In this document: positions 1 through 18,048 of the stretch, in pieces
How positions within the stretch are numbered: position 1 is the stretch's first letter
Layout of the letters: the number at the start of each line of letters is the position of its first letter
DNA from: an uncultured virus (IMG/VR IMGVR_UViG_3300034812_000685)
Lineage: Duplodnaviria; Heunggongvirae; Uroviricota; Caudoviricetes
Reading direction: 5' to 3' (one strand)
Length of the DNA stretch: 20,000 bases
IMG/VR virus record: IMGVR_UViG_3300034812_000685
The notes under the pieces: model-generated
Database searches by the model: none
What the model saw: only the letters and a program-made list of their open reading frames with translations
What the model was told of the DNA's origin: nothing
Made by a program: the position numbers and the translations under genes

Positions 1-369
1 TATAAACGTCATGCACTTTCAGGAACGGTCATTGAGCTTGCGGCTTCTGGATATGCGGTGTATCAGATGATGAGCAAAAAGGTTCCTGGGTTGATTGGCT
101 TTAGGCCTGAGAAGAGTAAAACAGCGAGAGCATCAGGTATTGTGCCATTAGTTGAAGCTGGTAATGTTTTCTTGCCCGCGAGTGCTAGTTGGCTAGATGC
201 ATTTTTAAATGAGTTTGCATTGTTTCCCGCTTCTAAAAATGATGACATGGTCGATAGTTTGACTATGGCTATTAACTATTGCAGTCAAAGAACAGCGCCA
301 CAAATGACAGAAGTTACTTGGGGTCGTGGCAACAGACCACTACCGAATGGGAAAATTAATACCTGGTAG
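1..369 (+). CDS. terL: Phage terminase large subunit, C-terminal RNase H-like nuclease domain (5' truncated by window edge)
   Basis: Frame is open from base 1 (YKRHALSGTVIELAASGYAVYQMM...). Motifs IExAASG, P-x2-SKxARA...VPLVEAGNVFLP...WLDAFLNEFALFP...NDDMVDSLTMA are typical of Terminase_6C-type domains. Confidence 0.88.
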   Translation, partial: YKRHALSGTVIELAASGYAVYQMMSKKVPGLIGFRPEKSKTARASGIVPLVEAGNVFLPASASWLDAFLNEFALFPASKNDDMVDSLTMAINYCSQRTAPQMTEVTWGRGNRPLPNGKINTW

Positions 370-390: not shown

Positions 391-1122
391 TTGGTGGCAC
401 GTAAAACTAAAAAATTTACGATGTCTCCAGAGCAGCAAAGACTTGCATCTGAAAATTTAAATCTTGCACGTCGTGAAGCATGGAGGATACAAAGGTCGAC
501 TGGTATTGACTATCAAACCCTGGAATCAGTTGCTTTTGAAGGATTGTGCAAGGCTGCATACAGGTACGACCCCGAAAGGCCACATCCAATAACAGGTAAA
601 AGCATGAAGTTTTCAAGCTTAGCTATACCTACGATACGAGGCGAGCTATTGCACTGGGTTAGGGATAAAACATATTCAATAAGACTTAGTCACAAAATGA
701 GAGAGAACTGGGTCAAGGGCAGGAAGCTGCTGTACAGGGGATCATCTGACCTTGAAATTGCTGCAGAGCTTGGTATTTCCAAGGAAGAGTGGATAGAAGT
801 TAGAAAAGTTTGCTCAGGACCACCATTGGAGTTAAAGGAACAAGCCAAACCGACAGAAGCACTGGAACCTGACGAAGTAAACTTTGCTGACATGTATATC
901 GACAATGCTGTAAAGGCAATTCAAGCAAATGGAGATGAGCAAATTTTAAAAGATCTTGAAATTTATTTGACTGGAGTTGGGAACGTAATACCTAAAAAGC
1001 AAATTAACAGACTGCTGCTATTAGCTGGCTGTGAAGAGACCGACTGGTCTGATGAGGACATAGATTTGATTAATGGTTGGGAAGAAATTGGCAACGGAAG
1101 ATTGCAGGGAAATCTGTTTTGA
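391..1122 (+). CDS. Phage-encoded sigma-70 family factor, SigF/SigB-like (regions 2 and 3 present, region 4 not recognisable); start could be TTG391, GTG394 or ATG421
   Basis: Region 2: ENLNLARREAWR...YQTLESVAFEGLCKAAYRYDP...KFSSLAIPTIRGELLHWVRD. Region 3-like: SDLEIAAELGISKEEWIEV. Confidence 0.85.
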   Translation: MVARKTKKFTMSPEQQRLASENLNLARREAWRIQRSTGIDYQTLESVAFEGLCKAAYRYDPERPHPITGKSMKFSSLAIPTIRGELLHWVRDKTYSIRLSHKMRENWVKGRKLLYRGSSDLEIAAELGISKEEWIEVRKVCSGPPLELKEQAKPTEALEPDEVNFADMYIDNAVKAIQANGDEQILKDLEIYLTGVGNVIPKKQINRLLLLAGCEETDWSDEDIDLINGWEEIGNGRLQGNLF

Positions 1123-1134
1123 TTACCATGGCGC

Positions 1135-2736
1135 ATGGGGATTTCACAGAAGACTCTTCAGCGCCTCAAGGACGTCTCTTTGGCAGATGTCATACAGGCT
1201 TGCGGGAGCACTCTTAAAAAAGCCGGCAGAGAGTATCAGACCCATTGCCTGTGGCATGACGACAAACGGCCATCGCTGAATGTTGTTGAGGACAAAGGAT
1301 TTATGTTTTGCCCGGTGTGTCACGCCAGGGCAGATGCGATTGATTATGTAGGGCAGAAGTTTGGACTGGAGTGGCGCGATGCTGTTGAGAAGACGGCAGA
1401 TCTTTGTGGTATTGCTGTTGAGCTTGATGGCGTCGATCCAGAAGTTGCTGCGAAGCAAAGGGAGGAAAGGCGCAATGACATCAAAAAATTAGAACTTCAA
1501 CAATCAACTTTTAAAAAGAACATTAAGGATCCACGGGCTGAGCGAATACGTCAAATCCTTGTAAACAGGGGTTTCGGCCCTGATTCTGCAAATGAATTTG
1601 GGATTGGATTCTGTGCTGAAGGCTTCTTTGCAGGTCGAATTACAATCCCGATCTATAATCATCGCAATGAACTTGTAGGGTTTACTGGCAGGACAACAAC
1701 AGACGATCAACCTAAGTATAAAAACTCATACGAAAGTGATTTATTTATAAAAAAGAATATCGTCTTTAACGAAGTCAGGGCAAAGGTCGCCGCTCGTGAG
1801 GCTAATAGTTTGATCTTTGTTGAAGGCCATCTAGATGTCGTGTCAATGTGGCAACAGGGCATCAAAAATGTAGTGGCCTTGCAAGGTACTGGCGCTCCAG
1901 AGACCTTAGTATTAAAACGCTTAGCAAAAGCAGCCAGTAATTTTGTCCTTTGTTTCGACGGAGATCAAGGTGGCAAAAAGGCCGTTGAATTATTCATATC
2001 TGCAGCAGGTCCGATGGCGATGTCCGGTGAAATCTCCATTAATGTTGCCACACTGCCGAGTGGTTCTGATCCAGATGAAGTCATCAAAACTGGCGGCAAC
2101 TTATACAACTACATTGCAAATGCACCTAACTGGCTTGATTGGGTTATTGATGAATGGGTTAAAGATCTTGATAAGACCGACACTAAACAGGTGACACTGG
2201 TCGAGAAAAAGCTTAAAGATTTAATTAATGGCCTGCGATCAAATGCCCTTAGGACTCATTACATTGATCGTGCAGCTCGAATGTTGGCAAAGAGCAACAA
2301 AGACGCTGAAAAGATTGCAAAGACATGGAGTTCTCAATGGGACAACTTATTTGTATCTGACTGGAAGCCAAGGACTGCAACCGAAATTAGGACTGCTGCT
2401 GAAAAAAGAATGCTCCGAATATACGTACATAAGCCTCAACACCGAGGAAGACTAAAAAAGCTTATGAGCGCAGTACACAACCCCGCATTAAGGTGGTTAG
2501 TGGTACGACTTAGTGAGCTTGAGGAATACAGCTCAACAGATTTAACACCTCACAGCGTGATGGCGGTTGTCTGTGTAGCTGAACCTCACTTTGTACAACA
2601 ACTTAGGTCTGTGGTATGTCCAACAATTCATCTTGACGATACCGAAGGTGTGCTGCTGCACATCGAAAAAATCTTAGGTCAAGAAGTAATTGCTTCTGAC
2701 TTGCTGCCACAAAGCGAACCATCCCAAACAAACTGA
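1135..2736 (+). CDS. dnaG: DNA primase, DnaG type
   Basis: CHC2 zinc finger (CLWHDDKRPS...CPVC), GRITIPI...VGFTGR...PKYKNS, TOPRIM motifs FVEGHLDV, CFDGDQGG and LPSGSDPDE. Confidence 0.95.
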   Translation: MGISQKTLQRLKDVSLADVIQACGSTLKKAGREYQTHCLWHDDKRPSLNVVEDKGFMFCPVCHARADAIDYVGQKFGLEWRDAVEKTADLCGIAVELDGVDPEVAAKQREERRNDIKKLELQQSTFKKNIKDPRAERIRQILVNRGFGPDSANEFGIGFCAEGFFAGRITIPIYNHRNELVGFTGRTTTDDQPKYKNSYESDLFIKKNIVFNEVRAKVAAREANSLIFVEGHLDVVSMWQQGIKNVVALQGTGAPETLVLKRLAKAASNFVLCFDGDQGGKKAVELFISAAGPMAMSGEISINVATLPSGSDPDEVIKTGGNLYNYIANAPNWLDWVIDEWVKDLDKTDTKQVTLVEKKLKDLINGLRSNALRTHYIDRAARMLAKSNKDAEKIAKTWSSQWDNLFVSDWKPRTATEIRTAAEKRMLRIYVHKPQHRGRLKKLMSAVHNPALRWLVVRLSELEEYSSTDLTPHSVMAVVCVAEPHFVQQLRSVVCPTIHLDDTEGVLLHIEKILGQEVIASDLLPQSEPSQTN

Positions 2737-4514: not shown

Positions 4515-4582
4515 TTTAAAAGCCAAACCCCTTCTTTGCAGGTAGATTCTGTAGGCATCCTGAGCCTACCCGCATTCAATAG

Positions 4583-6904
4583 ATGAAGGAATTTCGTCAA
4601 TCAGCCCCTTCCGCCGAAGCTGTTTTCTATCGTACCTACAGCCGTCGCAAAGCTAATGGCACGAGGGAAAGCTTTTATGATGCAATGTGTCGCACTATTG
4701 ATGATATTGCAGAAATCGGCAAATTCAATCAAGAGCAGTACGACTTGGTAAGGCGTGAAGCTTTGGGCCAACGTGCATTCCCTTCTGGGCGTGCTTTCTG
4801 GGTTGCTGGTACAAAGTGGGGAAAGAAACAAGAAAACTTTTCTGGTTATTACAACTGCACGTCAACTCATATTCAAGACATTGAAGCTTTTGGGCTGCTA
4901 GTTGATCTTGCAATGATGGGATCTGGTACTGGTGCTGTGTTAGAACCAGAAGTGATTGCAAAACTGCCGACAGTAAAAAACAAGCTTGAGATTGTTTCAG
5001 TCAAGGAAATCGGAACCTTGCCAGCTGATCAGCGGCACGATAACAGTAGGATGGACACCAATTTGCCTTCTGGTGTAATCCAAATCTCCGTTGGAGACAG
5101 TCGCCATGGTTGGCAGCAGGCTTATCAAATGTTGCTAAATCTTGGTTTCTTTGGTGCTCCTAATCATGAAGGCACTATTAGGATTCATCTCGATCTTTCA
5201 AGTGTTCGGCCTTCAGGAGAGCGTTTGAAAGGTTTTGGCGGCACAGCTAATCCAGTTAAGCTTGAAGAGGCATTCCGCAAGGTTGCTGATATTTTTACTG
5301 ATGCGGTCGGCCGGCAGCTTACCTCTGTTGAAGCTTGTCTGCTGATTGACGAGGCGGCTACTGCTGTTGTGGCAGGGAACATCCGACGCAGTGCTGGTAT
5401 GCGCCAATTCGGGCAAGATGATACGGATGCCGCAACGGCAAAGCTTGGCTTGTACACACAGGACGAAGAAGGTAATTGGCGCGTAGATCCAAAAAAAGAA
5501 GCCTTGCGTATGGCAAATCACACTCGTTGCTTTCATACAAAGCCTTCACTTGAAGAAGTTACTGATGCAGTTACAAAGCAGTTTCATTCCGGTGAAGGTG
5601 CAATTCAATATGTACCGGAAGCTGTTTGCCGTGCAAATGTAGACGTTTTAAATTCTATCAAATTACGCAAGCAGTTTCTTGCTACATATACCCGACACGG
5701 GCGCAACACTGCCAAGGGTTTTCTTTTCAATACAGCTGCCATGCAGGGTGGTTGCGAGCTTGACCAACGCGAACTTGATCATCGGATGGATCGCTATGGG
5801 CTCAATCCTTGTGGTGAAATTATCGGCCGTGACTTCCACTGCAACCTTGCTGAGGTCCATCTTAATACCATTTCACCTGATAACAAAGAACAGCAAGAAG
5901 ATGCTTTCTATGCTGCTGGCCTGCAGGTCGCTGCGTTGCTCCAGCATGAATTTGTACATGAACGTTATCAGTACTCACGGGAAATTGATCCGATCGTTGG
6001 TGTCAGCTTTACCGGTTTGTTCGATTTTTTTGTTCATGCCTTTGGCAGTGAATGGCTGAAATGGATGATGGAAGGTCGCCCAGATGATGGTCGCCGGGCT
6101 GCAAAGTTCACCAGTTCGGAGCAAATGTTCCTTGCTCGTTGGCGTACTTCTGCCCGTAAAGCAGTCATCGAATACTGTAAACAGCACAATATCCGCGTAC
6201 CAAATCGGATCACCACAGTTCAACCAGCTGGTACTAAAAGTCTTTTGACGGGCGCTTCTTCCGGATGGCATCCTCCTAAAGCTCAGCGTTTTATTCGTCG
6301 GATCACCCTGGGAGTCTCTGATCCTTTGGTGCCATCTTTGATCGAGTATGGATTCAATGTGATCCCTGCTCAATCGGCACGAGATGAAGAGGGGAATCTG
6401 CTTGACGACATTTCAGACCCACGAGTACAAGAGGTGCTTGTTGAAATCCCGACTGAAGTAAGTTGGGCCAATCTCCCTGGGTGTGATCAATTTGATCTTG
6501 CAAATTTGCCTGTTGAAGCTCAATATGGTCTTTACATGCAGGTGCAAACTCACTACACGGACCACAACACTTCTGCAACAATTGAGCTGCGGGAACATGA
6601 AATCGAGACACTGTCAAAGCTGATTTATGAAACCATCCAGAAAGATGGCGGATATATTTCAGCAGCCTTGCTTGCCAGGTTTGACGCTAACGAAACGTTC
6701 CCTCGTCTTCCCTTTGAGCCAATTAGTAAGGAAAAGTATGACGACGAAGTCATCATTAATATGTTCTCTCGCGATTCTGAAAATTTTCTCAGTATTCTCA
6801 ATAAGTACGACAGCGAGGATTGGTCGATCGAATCAGTAGCAGGTTGTCAATCGGCAGCTTGTCTCGACAAGGCCGACAAAGATGAAAGGGACAAGGGTCT
6901 TTAA
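4583..6904 (+). CDS. nrdJ: Class II (adenosylcobalamin-dependent) ribonucleoside-triphosphate reductase, cyanobacterial monomeric type
   Basis: VFYRTYSRR, FPSGR, YNCTS, VVAGNIRRSA, NPCGEI (thiyl radical Cys), CNLAEVHL, TTVQPAGTKSLL, HNTSATIE and a C-terminal C-x4-C pair (CQSAAC). Confidence 0.95.
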   Translation: MKEFRQSAPSAEAVFYRTYSRRKANGTRESFYDAMCRTIDDIAEIGKFNQEQYDLVRREALGQRAFPSGRAFWVAGTKWGKKQENFSGYYNCTSTHIQDIEAFGLLVDLAMMGSGTGAVLEPEVIAKLPTVKNKLEIVSVKEIGTLPADQRHDNSRMDTNLPSGVIQISVGDSRHGWQQAYQMLLNLGFFGAPNHEGTIRIHLDLSSVRPSGERLKGFGGTANPVKLEEAFRKVADIFTDAVGRQLTSVEACLLIDEAATAVVAGNIRRSAGMRQFGQDDTDAATAKLGLYTQDEEGNWRVDPKKEALRMANHTRCFHTKPSLEEVTDAVTKQFHSGEGAIQYVPEAVCRANVDVLNSIKLRKQFLATYTRHGRNTAKGFLFNTAAMQGGCELDQRELDHRMDRYGLNPCGEIIGRDFHCNLAEVHLNTISPDNKEQQEDAFYAAGLQVAALLQHEFVHERYQYSREIDPIVGVSFTGLFDFFVHAFGSEWLKWMMEGRPDDGRRAAKFTSSEQMFLARWRTSARKAVIEYCKQHNIRVPNRITTVQPAGTKSLLTGASSGWHPPKAQRFIRRITLGVSDPLVPSLIEYGFNVIPAQSARDEEGNLLDDISDPRVQEVLVEIPTEVSWANLPGCDQFDLANLPVEAQYGLYMQVQTHYTDHNTSATIELREHEIETLSKLIYETIQKDGGYISAALLARFDANETFPRLPFEPISKEKYDDEVIINMFSRDSENFLSILNKYDSEDWSIESVAGCQSAACLDKADKDERDKGL

Positions 6905-7701: not shown

Positions 7702-7785
7702 ATGTCCGGCAACCTAATAGGACGAGGGTTGCGAGATGCTTCCTGGTCGATCTTAGGTATGACGCCTTTCACGCAGTGACTGCAA

Positions 7786-14899: not shown

Positions 14900-14948
14900 C
14901 AACTACTAGAGACTGACTACGATTGGTTTGCCTCTATACCTATGTCCC

Positions 14949-15161
14949 ATGGATAGATTCAAAGAGATTAAGGCGATTGCAGTGGAATTTAATTTCACCC
15001 TCCATAGAGAGGGCAAACATTACATCTGGAAATCGCCTTCTGGAGCGCTTGTGACAACAGGCAAGACCCTGTCAGACAGAAAGGCCCTTAAGAACATCAG
15101 ATCAATGTTCCGCAGGGCTTCTGTTGCGAATTGTAAAAGGCCTTGGCATAAGGGGGGCTGA
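14949..15161 (+). CDS. HicA-like (dsRBD-fold) protein; start revised to ATG14949
   Basis: F-x-L-x-R-x-GKHYIWKSPSG-x-LVTTGKTLSDRKALKNI pattern with His at the HicA catalytic position. Confidence 0.6.
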   Translation: MDRFKEIKAIAVEFNFTLHREGKHYIWKSPSGALVTTGKTLSDRKALKNIRSMFRRASVANCKRPWHKGG

Positions 15162-16483: not shown

Positions 16484-16981
16484 ATGGGCGACATCATTAT
16501 CCATAAGGAGCGAGTTTTCCGCAAGACCGATGGAGTTCACTTTGCTGACATCAGCATTGCGGGCTCCAACGGCATGGACCTGGTCGAACACAAGGGCAAA
16601 GCAGTTAGCCCACCAAGCATGCTCGGGATCTCCCGTTGGTACATGCATCGCCATCAGACAGATAACAACCGTGTAATTCAAGGTTGCAGACTGTTTGAAT
16701 TATTTTGTGATCACTTCAAGCATCCACACTGGTATGTATTTCTCGACCAAGACATTGGTGCTCTTGAAATTCCACCCTTTTGCTATCATCGGTCGATTTC
16801 TGGTAAGAAAGGCAGCGTCTTAGTCAATCATGCAATTCGTGATGAGCGTTATAATGAAAAGCATGAATTCAGGCCGGGCTTCTGTTATTTTGCTGGTTTA
16901 GTTCCTCCAAAGTATTATAATATTAGCCCTTTTGAAGTTTCTTATTTCAAAGAACATGGCGTAATGCCTACGTGGTTATGA
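16484..16981 (+). CDS. RmlC-like cupin protein of a picocyanobacterial/cyanophage family
   Basis: RVFRKTDGVHFADIS...DLVEH...AVSPP...YMHRHQTDNNRV...GALEIPP...HRSISG...VNHAIR with His-rich cupin motifs. Confidence 0.7.
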   Translation: MGDIIIHKERVFRKTDGVHFADISIAGSNGMDLVEHKGKAVSPPSMLGISRWYMHRHQTDNNRVIQGCRLFELFCDHFKHPHWYVFLDQDIGALEIPPFCYHRSISGKKGSVLVNHAIRDERYNEKHEFRPGFCYFAGLVPPKYYNISPFEVSYFKEHGVMPTWL

Positions 16982-17395: not shown

Positions 17396-17695
17396 ATGGC
17401 GTTACCAACCAGCGACTTTTCTGACCCAGATCATACCTTTTACGGCGTTCAAGATCTGATCCTTTCAGTCGCATACTTCATCATTGACTTGCCAAGAACT
17501 TTTAATGATTTCTTTAGATTAGATGTAGATACTCTTGGCGCTCACATCAGGGATTTAACAATAATATTTGTACGTATTTCGCTTTATTTCTTCATAGCAG
17601 GAATCCAATTCAGGCAAATTCTTTTGGTATTCAATAGAATGCAAAGTGTGGGCAAATTCCGCACCGCACTGAAAACCCTTACTAAACAATCATGA
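17396..17695 (+). CDS. Hypothetical membrane-associated protein, 99 aa
   Basis: Hydrophobic segments; ATGA overlap with the next gene. Confidence 0.55.
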   Translation: MALPTSDFSDPDHTFYGVQDLILSVAYFIIDLPRTFNDFFRLDVDTLGAHIRDLTIIFVRISLYFFIAGIQFRQILLVFNRMQSVGKFRTALKTLTKQS

Positions 17696-18048
17696 TCAAA
17701 CTTTCCGCAGCCTTGGCAACTGCCTTTTCCCTAGCTCCTGCTGCTGCTCTGGCTGGCCCATATGCCAACGTGGAAACCAACGCAGGATTTCTTGGCTCTG
17801 AGTATCAGGCGGCCACGACAGACGTCCATGTGGGTTACGAAAGCACTTCAGGAGATTTCTCCTGGTACCTGCAGGGCGGTCCAGCCATCTTGACCAGTGA
17901 TGAAGACTCTTCCGTAGAACTCTCTGGTAAAGTCGGGGCCTCGGTGGCTGCCACGGAAAAGCTTAGTTTCTATGGGGAATTGAGCGGTATCACTGGCGAC
18001 GATGAAAATGCCTACGGCTTGAAAGCTGGCGCTAAATATTCTTTCTGA
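17692..18048 (+). CDS. Small outer-membrane beta-barrel-like protein of the cyanophage/Synechococcus type
   Basis: Signal peptide ending ALA|GPYANVETNAG; amphipathic beta strands (DVHVGYE, WYLQGGP, LSGKVGASV, LSFYGEL); C-terminal GAKYSF beta-signal. Confidence 0.8.
   Translation: MIKLSAALATAFSLAPAAALAGPYANVETNAGFLGSEYQAATTDVHVGYESTSGDFSWYLQGGPAILTSDEDSSVELSGKVGASVAATEKLSFYGELSGITGDDENAYGLKAGAKYSF

What the first reader, a model, noticed from the sequence alone, without database searches (positions are those of the whole stretch)
391..1122. Sigma factor lacking region 4 and ending in a beta-clamp-binding-like motif: possible T4 gp55-style replication-coupled transcription
Seen: regions 2 and 3 are SigF/SigB-like, but no region 4.2 HTH follows. 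Instead there is an acidic stretch (EETDWSDEDID...EE) and terminal QGNLF (1105-1119). Established: QL[S/D]LF-like (QxxLF) motifs at protein C-termini bind the DnaN sliding clamp, and T4 gp55 lacks region 4, reads only a -10 element and is activated through a C-terminal clamp-binding tail. Inference: this phage may have independently built clamp-activated late transcription from a group-3 sigma. The gene sits directly before the primase.
Basis: partly seen in the sequence, partly recalled or inferred. Interest (0 to 1): 0.8.

Follow-up and report, generated by a model that had tools for sequence, protein, structure and literature searches.

The report
Cyanophage sigma factor with clamp tail
This cyanobacterial virus encodes a sigma factor that has lost one helix of its -35-reading fold and ends in the same five residues found at the clamp-docking site of cyanobacterial-type DNA polymerase III, so it likely docks on the host's sliding clamp and would thereby tie virion-gene transcription to DNA replication.

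Summary
The observation largely holds, with one correction: region 4 is not absent. Residues 165-211 are a sigma-4 remnant with a 9-residue deletion of the first helix of the -35-reading HTH. The phage is an S-CBS2-like cyanosiphovirus. Terminal QxxLF is kept in 119 of the 120 best homologs with synonymous codon change. Clamp-type motifs occur in 32 of 113 distant relatives (shuffles 3.4). QGNLF also sits at the clamp-binding position of cyanobacterial-type DnaE. No phage clamp or polymerase was found, so the partner would be host DnaN. A complex prediction gave weak support only. Virion genes carry a one-box motif, GG[ACT]An[AC]CTA, with no -35 signal. Against an essential role: 27 of 63 distinct close relatives, P-SS2 included, lack the tail, and all 7 tailless genomes examined keep the motif. 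Best reading: a late sigma stimulated by the host clamp, analogous to T4 gp55/gp33 and Mu MuC but in neither family. Binding and activation are untested. This scan noted similar cases on other genomes; my searches found none in print.

The parts
391..1122 (+). SigF-derived (group 3) phage sigma factor gene; likelier start GTG at 394
445..669 (+). sigma region 2 (residues 19-93): core binding and -10 recognition, by homology
   Evidence: Pfam PF04542 E 3e-4, under cut-off; hhalign to SigF-like set, probability 99.9
691..813 (+). sigma region 3 helices (residues 101-141)
883..1023 (+). sigma-4 remnant (residues 165-211): helices 1, 2 and 4 kept, first HTH helix deleted (9 residues); predicted to keep flap binding and to lose -35 reading
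1024..1104 (+). acidic linker and predicted beta-hairpin (residues 212-238); G213, C214, W219 and R237 are 97-99% conserved in the close tailed clade but absent from distant members
1105..1119 (+). terminal QGNLF, candidate beta-clamp-binding motif
7708..7716 (+). candidate late promoter box GGCAACCTA, 78 nt before the portal gene
4554..4562 (+). candidate box GGCATCCTG, 29 nt before the class II ribonucleotide reductase gene
1124..1129 (+). TACCAT, a sigma70-type -10-like hexamer 5 nt before the primase ATG (likely leaderless promoter); not part of the sigma gene
1135..2736 (+). DnaG-type primase, downstream neighbour
1..369 (+). 3' end of terminase large subunit, upstream neighbour

Best explanation
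The gene encodes a SigF-derived sigma factor with a 9-residue deletion in its -35-reading HTH and a conserved terminal QxxLF; it is likely the phage's late sigma, predicted to dock on the host beta clamp through that motif, which would boost virion-gene transcription on replicating DNA. Shown: the domain anatomy, the deletion, protein-level conservation of the motif, the same pentapeptide at the DnaE clamp site, no detectable phage clamp or polymerase, and a one-box motif enriched before virion genes with no positional -35 signal. Inferred: regions 2-3 read GG[ACT]An[AC]CTA; the sigma-4 remnant still holds the RNA polymerase flap, as gp33 does, which would place the tail near upstream DNA; clamps loaded by host Pol III on phage DNA tether the holoenzyme in place of a -35 contact; the effect is a boost rather than a requirement, since tailless relatives exist.
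For: Motif: 119 of 120 best homologs end QxxLF, the other QGNVF (best 120 of 696 hits seen). Both Gln, both Phe, all six Leu and all six Ser codons are used, and the distance to the downstream -10-like hexamer varies 18-29 nt. The motif survives loss or replacement of the linker (L057, L058, L087, P0133). 32 of 113 distant representatives carry QLxL[FL]/QxxLF after region 3; 500 shuffles gave mean 3.4, max 10 (pattern set after viewing). Pfam Sigma70_r4_2 hits 0 of those 32 and 30 of the other 81 (rows are related, not independent). 50 of 80 metagenome loci examined that encode GQGN[LF]FD[LF] are DnaE, and the motif aligns with the GQLDLF site of PDB 5fku and GQFDLF of 7pu7. MuC's QHDLF and QPDLF, also off-consensus at position 2, are functional (PMC12867686, passages). 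Complex prediction with Synechococcus elongatus DnaN: weak support, score 0.60, best of 3 controls 0.00, runs agree in at least 66% of contacts, partner pLDDT at least 51. That mark was reached by 116 of 157 solved and 2 of 215 mismatched pairs, but at 0.60 or under by only 18 of 157 and by both mismatches, and clamp-peptide complexes are solved, so it may reflect memory. Remnant: spacing is 18 residues in 15 of 15 intact SigF-like rows and 9-11 in 25 of 26 family rows (hand-picked rows); the top 7 of 48,161 chains for the domain model are sigma factors aligned over their C-terminal domain (best Z 5.1, rmsd 4.2, 57 aligned). Promoters: 19 of 32 sites in this genome fall in the 8% upstream space (p 2e-13); 16 of 39 starts in the structural block, 1 of 15 in the replication block, 1 of 25 in the small-gene block. 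Host SigF reads TAGGC(-32) plus GGTAA(-12) (PMC2532724); TAGGC lies upstream of 2 of 121 sites against 2.2 expected. No clamp match in this genome or in 36 relatives; no Pol A, B or III match over cut-off in 14 genomes.
Against: 27 of 63 distinct complete close homologs have no tail, with no motif in any frame next to their stop, and 7 tailless genomes carry the same promoter motif (101 upstream sites). No binding, expression-timing or transcription data exist here. The tail has conserved G, C, W and R residues and a predicted hairpin that includes Q239, so it may have a structural role or a second partner. Structural Z-scores are middling and Foldseek found nothing for the domain. The promoter motif was drawn from the same genomes in which it was counted. 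No transcription start was mapped. A second phage sigma and possibly a host SigF could read it. The DnaE search asked for the motif, so it shows use at that site, not how common it is. This genome is about 93% complete and many relatives are fragments.
Confidence: 0.55

Rival explanations
1. The tail binds the host clamp but does not activate transcription: it parks or localises the sigma at replication sites, times its release, or competes with host clamp partners.
For: All evidence for binding applies equally. Tailless genomes keep the same one-box motif. Clamp-motif proteins can block replication (SocB, PMC9690074 passage; MuC overexpression toxicity, PMC12867686).
Against: The motif goes with loss of the -35 HTH across the family. 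The phage appears to need host Pol III and clamp itself. In T4, loss of the gp55 motif only impairs activation (PMC7892883 passage), so dispensability fits an accessory activator.
Confidence: 0.2
2. The tail is a small folded element that packs on the sigma-4 remnant, RNA polymerase or another phage protein, and the likeness to a clamp motif is incidental.
For: G213, C214, W219, G229 and R237 are 96-99% conserved in the close clade; a hairpin is predicted at 230-240.
Against: The pentapeptide persists when the linker and hairpin are lost or replaced. Distant members carry consensus QLDLF, QLNLF, QLSMF, QLGLF, QMGLF. QGNLF occupies the DnaE clamp site.
Confidence: 0.13
3. The late box is read by host SigF or by the phage's second, RpoD-like sigma, and this protein serves another regulon or acts as a decoy for core polymerase.
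For: The box resembles the host SigF -12 element. A second sigma gene lies at G000 38200-39096. No experiment ties this sigma to the box.
Against: The host SigF -32 element is not enriched upstream. Group 3 sigmas are reported as uncommon in marine Prochlorococcus (PMC2784084 passage). The box is present in all 13 genomes examined, each of which encodes this sigma.
Confidence: 0.1
4. The motif is a by-product of DNA-level constraint from an overlapping primase promoter.
For: In this window the codons contain TTGCAG 16 nt before TACCAT, and GGAAATCTG, which fits the late box.
Against: Codons vary synonymously and the distance to the hexamer varies 18-29 nt; only 2 of 36 tailed loci match the late box there.
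Confidence: 0.02

Closest known systems
Phage T4 late transcription: gp55, gp33 and the gp45 clamp (PMC7892883, passages read; PMC9690074, passages read)
   Same: Host RNA polymerase, -10-like promoter without -35, C-terminal clamp motif on a linker, a flap-positioned element without sequence-specific DNA reading (predicted here).
   Different: gp55 is a region-2 homolog and gp33 is unrelated to sigma-4; here one chain holds regions 2, 3 and a true sigma-4 remnant. T4 encodes its clamp, loader and polymerase; none was found here. The motif is bacterial QxxLF, not LDFL.
Phage Mu MuC / Mor-MuC family (PMC12867686, part 1 of 7 and passages read)
   Same: Uses the host beta clamp through QxxLF motifs off-consensus at position 2; late promoters have a -10 but no -35.
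   Different: MuC is a DNA-binding activator that needs sigma70; this protein is itself a sigma factor. MuC binding and activation are shown, these are not.
Cyanobacterial SigF (PMC2532724, abstract and passages read)
   Same: Best-matching family for regions 2-3; the phage box resembles its -12 GGTAA element.
   Different: SigF-like proteins keep the four-helix sigma-4 and use a -32 element; none of the 32 motif-bearing proteins hits Pfam region 4.
Group 3 sigma genes of cyanosiphoviruses S-CBS2, S-CRES1-3 and P-SS2 (GenBank annotation; PMC2784084, passages read)
   Same: Orthologs at 50-71% identity, next to terL.
   Different: Annotated only as sigma factors; the passages read name no regulon, HTH loss or clamp motif. 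The S-CBS2 record is frameshifted before the tail; P-SS2 has no tail.

Membership tests
sigma70 family, group 3 (SigF/SigB-like) | region 2 | tested here: met
   PF04542 19-93 (under cut-off); PRK07408 E 3.5e-22; hhalign 99.9
sigma70 family, group 3 (SigF/SigB-like) | region 3 present, no region 1.1 | tested here: met
   region 2 starts at about residue 15
sigma70 family, group 3 (SigF/SigB-like) | intact region 4.2 helix-turn-helix | tested here: not met
   9-residue deletion of the first HTH helix; no PF04545 or PF08281 match. Derived from the group, not a canonical member.
sigma70 family, group 3 (SigF/SigB-like) | directs core RNA polymerase to its own promoters | not testable with these tools
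   candidate box only
T4 gp55 family / T4-type late system | sigma homology limited to region 2 | tested here: not met
   regions 3 and a region 4 remnant are present; no gp55 family match
T4 gp55 family / T4-type late system | phage-encoded clamp and polymerase | tested here: not met
   no DnaN match, no Pol A, B or III over cut-off; gp45-type profiles were not searched; genome about 93% complete
T4 gp55 family / T4-type late system | separate gp33 co-activator | not tested
   no gp33 profile search; no other ORF of 55 aa or more in this genome ends in a clamp-type motif
T4 gp55 family / T4-type late system | late promoters with a -10-like box only | tested here: inconclusive
   box enriched before virion genes, at most 0.18 bits per position from -59 to -17; starts not mapped
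beta-clamp-binding (QL[S/D]LF-type) proteins | conserved Q-x-x-L-F pentapeptide at an accessible end | tested here: met
   same pentapeptide at the DnaE site
beta-clamp-binding (QL[S/D]LF-type) proteins | measured binding to DnaN | not testable with these tools
   prediction only, weak support
Mor/MuC family | Mor-type activator domain working with sigma70 | tested here: not met
   no Mor match in Pfam, PHROGs or NCBIfam; the protein is a sigma

The most novel reading that the evidence does not exclude
A large, old family of cyanophage sigma factors arose from SigF by deleting exactly the helix that positions -35 reading and adding the host polymerase's own clamp pentapeptide. One chain then does the work of T4 gp55 and gp33 on the host beta clamp: a third independent route to clamp-activated late transcription, and a complete sigma factor gated by a bacterial clamp, with natural tailless variants as built-in controls.
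Probability: 0.5. Interest if true: 0.85.

Novelty: new variant of a known kind. Interest (0 to 1): 0.66.

Why it matters
Clamp-activated transcription is shown for T4 (own clamp) and Mu (host clamp, through an activator). A sigma factor that docks on the host beta clamp would show that the principle is general and can be built in one polypeptide by a short deletion plus a five-residue tail. It would also supply a late-gene switch and promoter for cultured cyanosiphoviruses (S-CBS2, S-CRES1-3, P-SS2) whose group 3 sigma has no assigned regulon in the passages I read. The test is cheap: peptide binding, then transcription with and without a loaded clamp.

Tried and rejected
DNA-level constraint from an overlapping promoter: rejected. 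Full loss of region 4: rejected. Phage-encoded clamp: none by PF00712 in this genome or PF02767 in 36 relatives. One weak Pol A hit in G031 (12 bits, under cut-off) was not counted. Foldseek of the full model gave only generic sigma hits and of the domain nothing. A split or frameshifted tail in tailless phages: 0 of 27. A replacement clamp-motif protein in tailless genomes: none evident among ORFs of 55 aa or more. More AT-rich upstream DNA in tailless genomes: no consistent pattern. A variable-spacer -35 word: TAGGC and TTGAC not enriched; GGCGG (16 against 2.7) and CCCTT/TTTTT-type words are enriched, which I read as ends of upstream fibre genes and terminators, untested. The genome-contig scan gave no cyanobacterial genome, so prophage copies and host SigF content were not surveyed. 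Literature searches without a description of this system: (open-access library only; the S-CBS2 and S-CRES genome papers were not seen; no supplements were opened, and those of PMC12867686 and PMC2784084 could bear on family coverage).

Full report
Setting. The window lies in a 64.9-kb virus record, about 93% complete. The protein's best matches among named phages are the sigma factors of Synechococcus phages S-CBS2 and S-CRES1-3 (68-71%, full length) and of P-SS2 (50% over residues 9-152). Gene order matches S-CBS2: terS, terL, sigma, primase, class II reductase, dCTP deaminase, portal. A second, RpoD-like sigma lies in the replication block.

The observation. The ORF, the acidic stretch and terminal QGNLF are as described. 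Pfam finds region 2 only. The SigF model stops at position 197 of 258. Of 696 homologs only the best 120 were visible; 119 end in QxxLF and one in QGNVF. Among 82 loci with a match I set aside 4 incomplete ones and 2 copies of the frameshifted S-CBS2 record, whose other frame ends RLQGSLF. After removing duplicates, 36 of 63 have the tail and 27 do not. In the tailed loci both Gln, both Phe, all six Leu and all six Ser codons occur, and the distance from the Gln codon to the downstream -10-like hexamer runs from 18 to 29 nt where one was found. Only 2 of 36 have DNA there that fits the late box. The constraint is on the protein.

Region 4 is cut, not gone. A model of residues 158-243 (mean pLDDT 83) has three confident helices, a linker and a hairpin. 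Against 48,161 solved chains the top seven rows are sigma factors aligned over their C-terminal domain: SigL, WhiG, SigL, SigK, SigB, RpoE, sigma32. The best is Z 5.1, rmsd 4.2, 57 aligned; these Z values are middling and tied, and Foldseek found nothing. Profile alignment to SigF-like proteins runs to residue 196, through the second helix of sigma-4. In a multiple alignment of hand-picked rows, the distance from that helix to the recognition helix is 18 residues in 15 of 15 intact proteins and 9-11 in 25 of 26 family members. The first HTH helix is what is missing. That the remnant still binds the flap is inference: sigma-4 contacts the flap tip helix, and T4 gp33 does the same (PMC7892883, passages).

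The motif in the wider family. A profile search gave 942 representatives, of which 150 were listed. Of the 113 with regions 2-3 and a 50-260-residue tail, 32 carry QLxL[FL] or QxxLF after region 3, against a shuffle mean of 3.4 and a maximum of 10 in 500. I set the pattern after viewing the sequences. Many are consensus forms: QLDLF, QLNLF, QLSMF, QLGLF, QMGLF. None of the 32 hits Pfam region 4; 30 of the other 81 do. These rows are related, so the Fisher value (9e-6) overstates it. A quick tree on 139 columns of regions 2-3 (109 rows; 28 near-redundant close rows left out) puts the window's protein in an 84-row clade (SH-aLRT 97) that holds none of the 15 intact rows and has motif-bearing members in most subclades, with tailless groups nested among tailed ones. 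An ancestral motif with several losses is the simplest reading; the tree cannot exclude repeated gains. One distant member, ending QLDLF, sits between a terL-like and a portal-like gene in a viral contig.

Is QGNLF a usable clamp motif? A scan of metagenome contigs for GQGN[LF]FD[LF] returned 119 loci; of the 80 examined, 50 are DnaE. Ten scanned match PRK07374 or PRK07373 best. One begins with a split DnaE intein piece. That these models and split inteins are cyanobacterial is recalled, not from a call. In alignments the pentapeptide falls on GQLDLF of E. coli Pol III alpha in 5fku and GQFDLF of 7pu7; QADMF is the wild-type E. coli motif and QLDLF a tight variant (PMC12309361, passages). The search asked for the motif, so it shows use at that site, not frequency. 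MuC's working motifs QHDLF and QPDLF also depart from consensus at position 2 (PMC12867686). The complex prediction with S. elongatus DnaN gave weak support: 0.60 against 0.00 for the best of 3 controls, runs agreeing in at least 66% of contacts, partner pLDDT at least 51. The mark was reached by 116 of 157 solved and 2 of 215 mismatched pairs, but at 0.60 or under by only 18 of 157 and both mismatches; memory of solved clamp-peptide complexes is possible.

Which clamp. No DnaN domain was found in this genome or in 36 related records, 11 of them at least 90% complete. No Pol A, B or III match passed cut-off in 14 records. The phage has primase, helicase and SSB, so it most likely uses host Pol III and clamp (inference).

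Promoters. Comparing upstream regions of orthologs in 13 genomes showed GG[ACT]An[AC]CTA before scaffold, portal, terS, tail and fibre genes (gene identities where PHROGs matched). In this genome 19 of 32 matches to the strict pattern lie 8-120 nt before a start, in 8% of the space. By block: 16 of 39 structural starts, 5 of 14 in terS-portal, 1 of 15 replication, 1 of 25 small-gene. Across genomes 119 of 213 upstream sites lie 25-34 nt before the start. Changing G-14, G-13, A-11, C-8 or T-7 removes most such sites. Positions -59 to -17 carry at most 0.18 bits, and there is a purine preference 6-7 nt after the T. Host SigF uses TAGGC at -32 and GGTAA at -12 (PMC2532724); TAGGC occurs upstream of 2 of 121 sites against 2.2 expected. 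The motif came from these same genomes and no start is mapped.

What speaks against. All 7 tailless genomes have the same box, their sigmas have the same deletion, and no displaced tail or replacement protein was seen. The -35-less design therefore works without the tail in some phages. This fits an accessory boost, as loss of the gp55 motif only impairs T4 activation, but it also fits a non-activating role. The close clade's tail has further conserved residues and a hairpin, which could mean a second contact.

Comparison and verdict. It would work like T4 gp55 plus gp33 and like Mu MuC, and belongs to neither family. Searches found no paper on it; I saw listings for those, part 1 of 7 and passages of PMC12867686, and passages of PMC7892883, PMC2784084, PMC2532724, PMC9690074 and PMC12309361. 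Earlier notes of this scan describe similar sigmas and boxes on other genomes; I saw the first set after finding the family-wide motif and the second after finding the box, and count neither as evidence. Odds: tail binds host DnaN about 0.8; this sigma reads the box about 0.85; clamp binding stimulates late transcription about 0.55 overall. New variant of a known kind; interest 0.66.

Noticed in passing
window 1124-1135 and tailed loci L005-L058: A TAnnnT hexamer, often after TG or GG, lies 5-7 nt before the primase ATG in 20 of 36 tailed loci, suggesting a leaderless primase transcript.
   Followed up: partly
window 7720-7785; upstream of scaffold, major capsid and major tail genes: A recurring GCG[T/A/C]GA[T/C/G]GC word inside short inverted repeats in the 5' regions of portal, scaffold and capsid genes across relatives; possibly an RNA hairpin or operator.
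   Followed up: no
L012:21833-22565 (S-CBS2, GU936714.1): The deposited sigma gene is frameshifted near a C run, so the annotated 206-aa protein lacks the tail; another frame ends RLQGSLF. Sequencing error or real is unknown.
   Followed up: partly
L004:6200-7096 (G000 38200-39096): Second, RpoD-like sigma with a region 4.2-like stretch that Pfam does not detect.
   Followed up: no
L086:10001-10627: A tailless ortholog ends YESDLF, a half motif like the DLF of Mu Mor.
   Followed up: no
L095:17890-18349 and L099:15663-15927 (G013): Two small ORFs in a P-SS2-like genome end QTELF and QKPLF; the first lies 250 nt after the sigma gene.
   Followed up: no
window 4554-4562 and 4583-6904: The class II ribonucleotide reductase gene is preceded by the candidate late box in most relatives, although it is a nucleotide-supply gene.
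   Followed up: no
window 14928-15161 and 16484-16981: Weak HicA match (E 0.013) and a PHROG labelled 'hemagglutinin'; neither label was checked.
   Followed up: no
window 17692-18048: 118-aa ORF with a signal-peptide-like start and a C-terminal Phe, resembling a small outer-membrane protein by eye.
   Followed up: no
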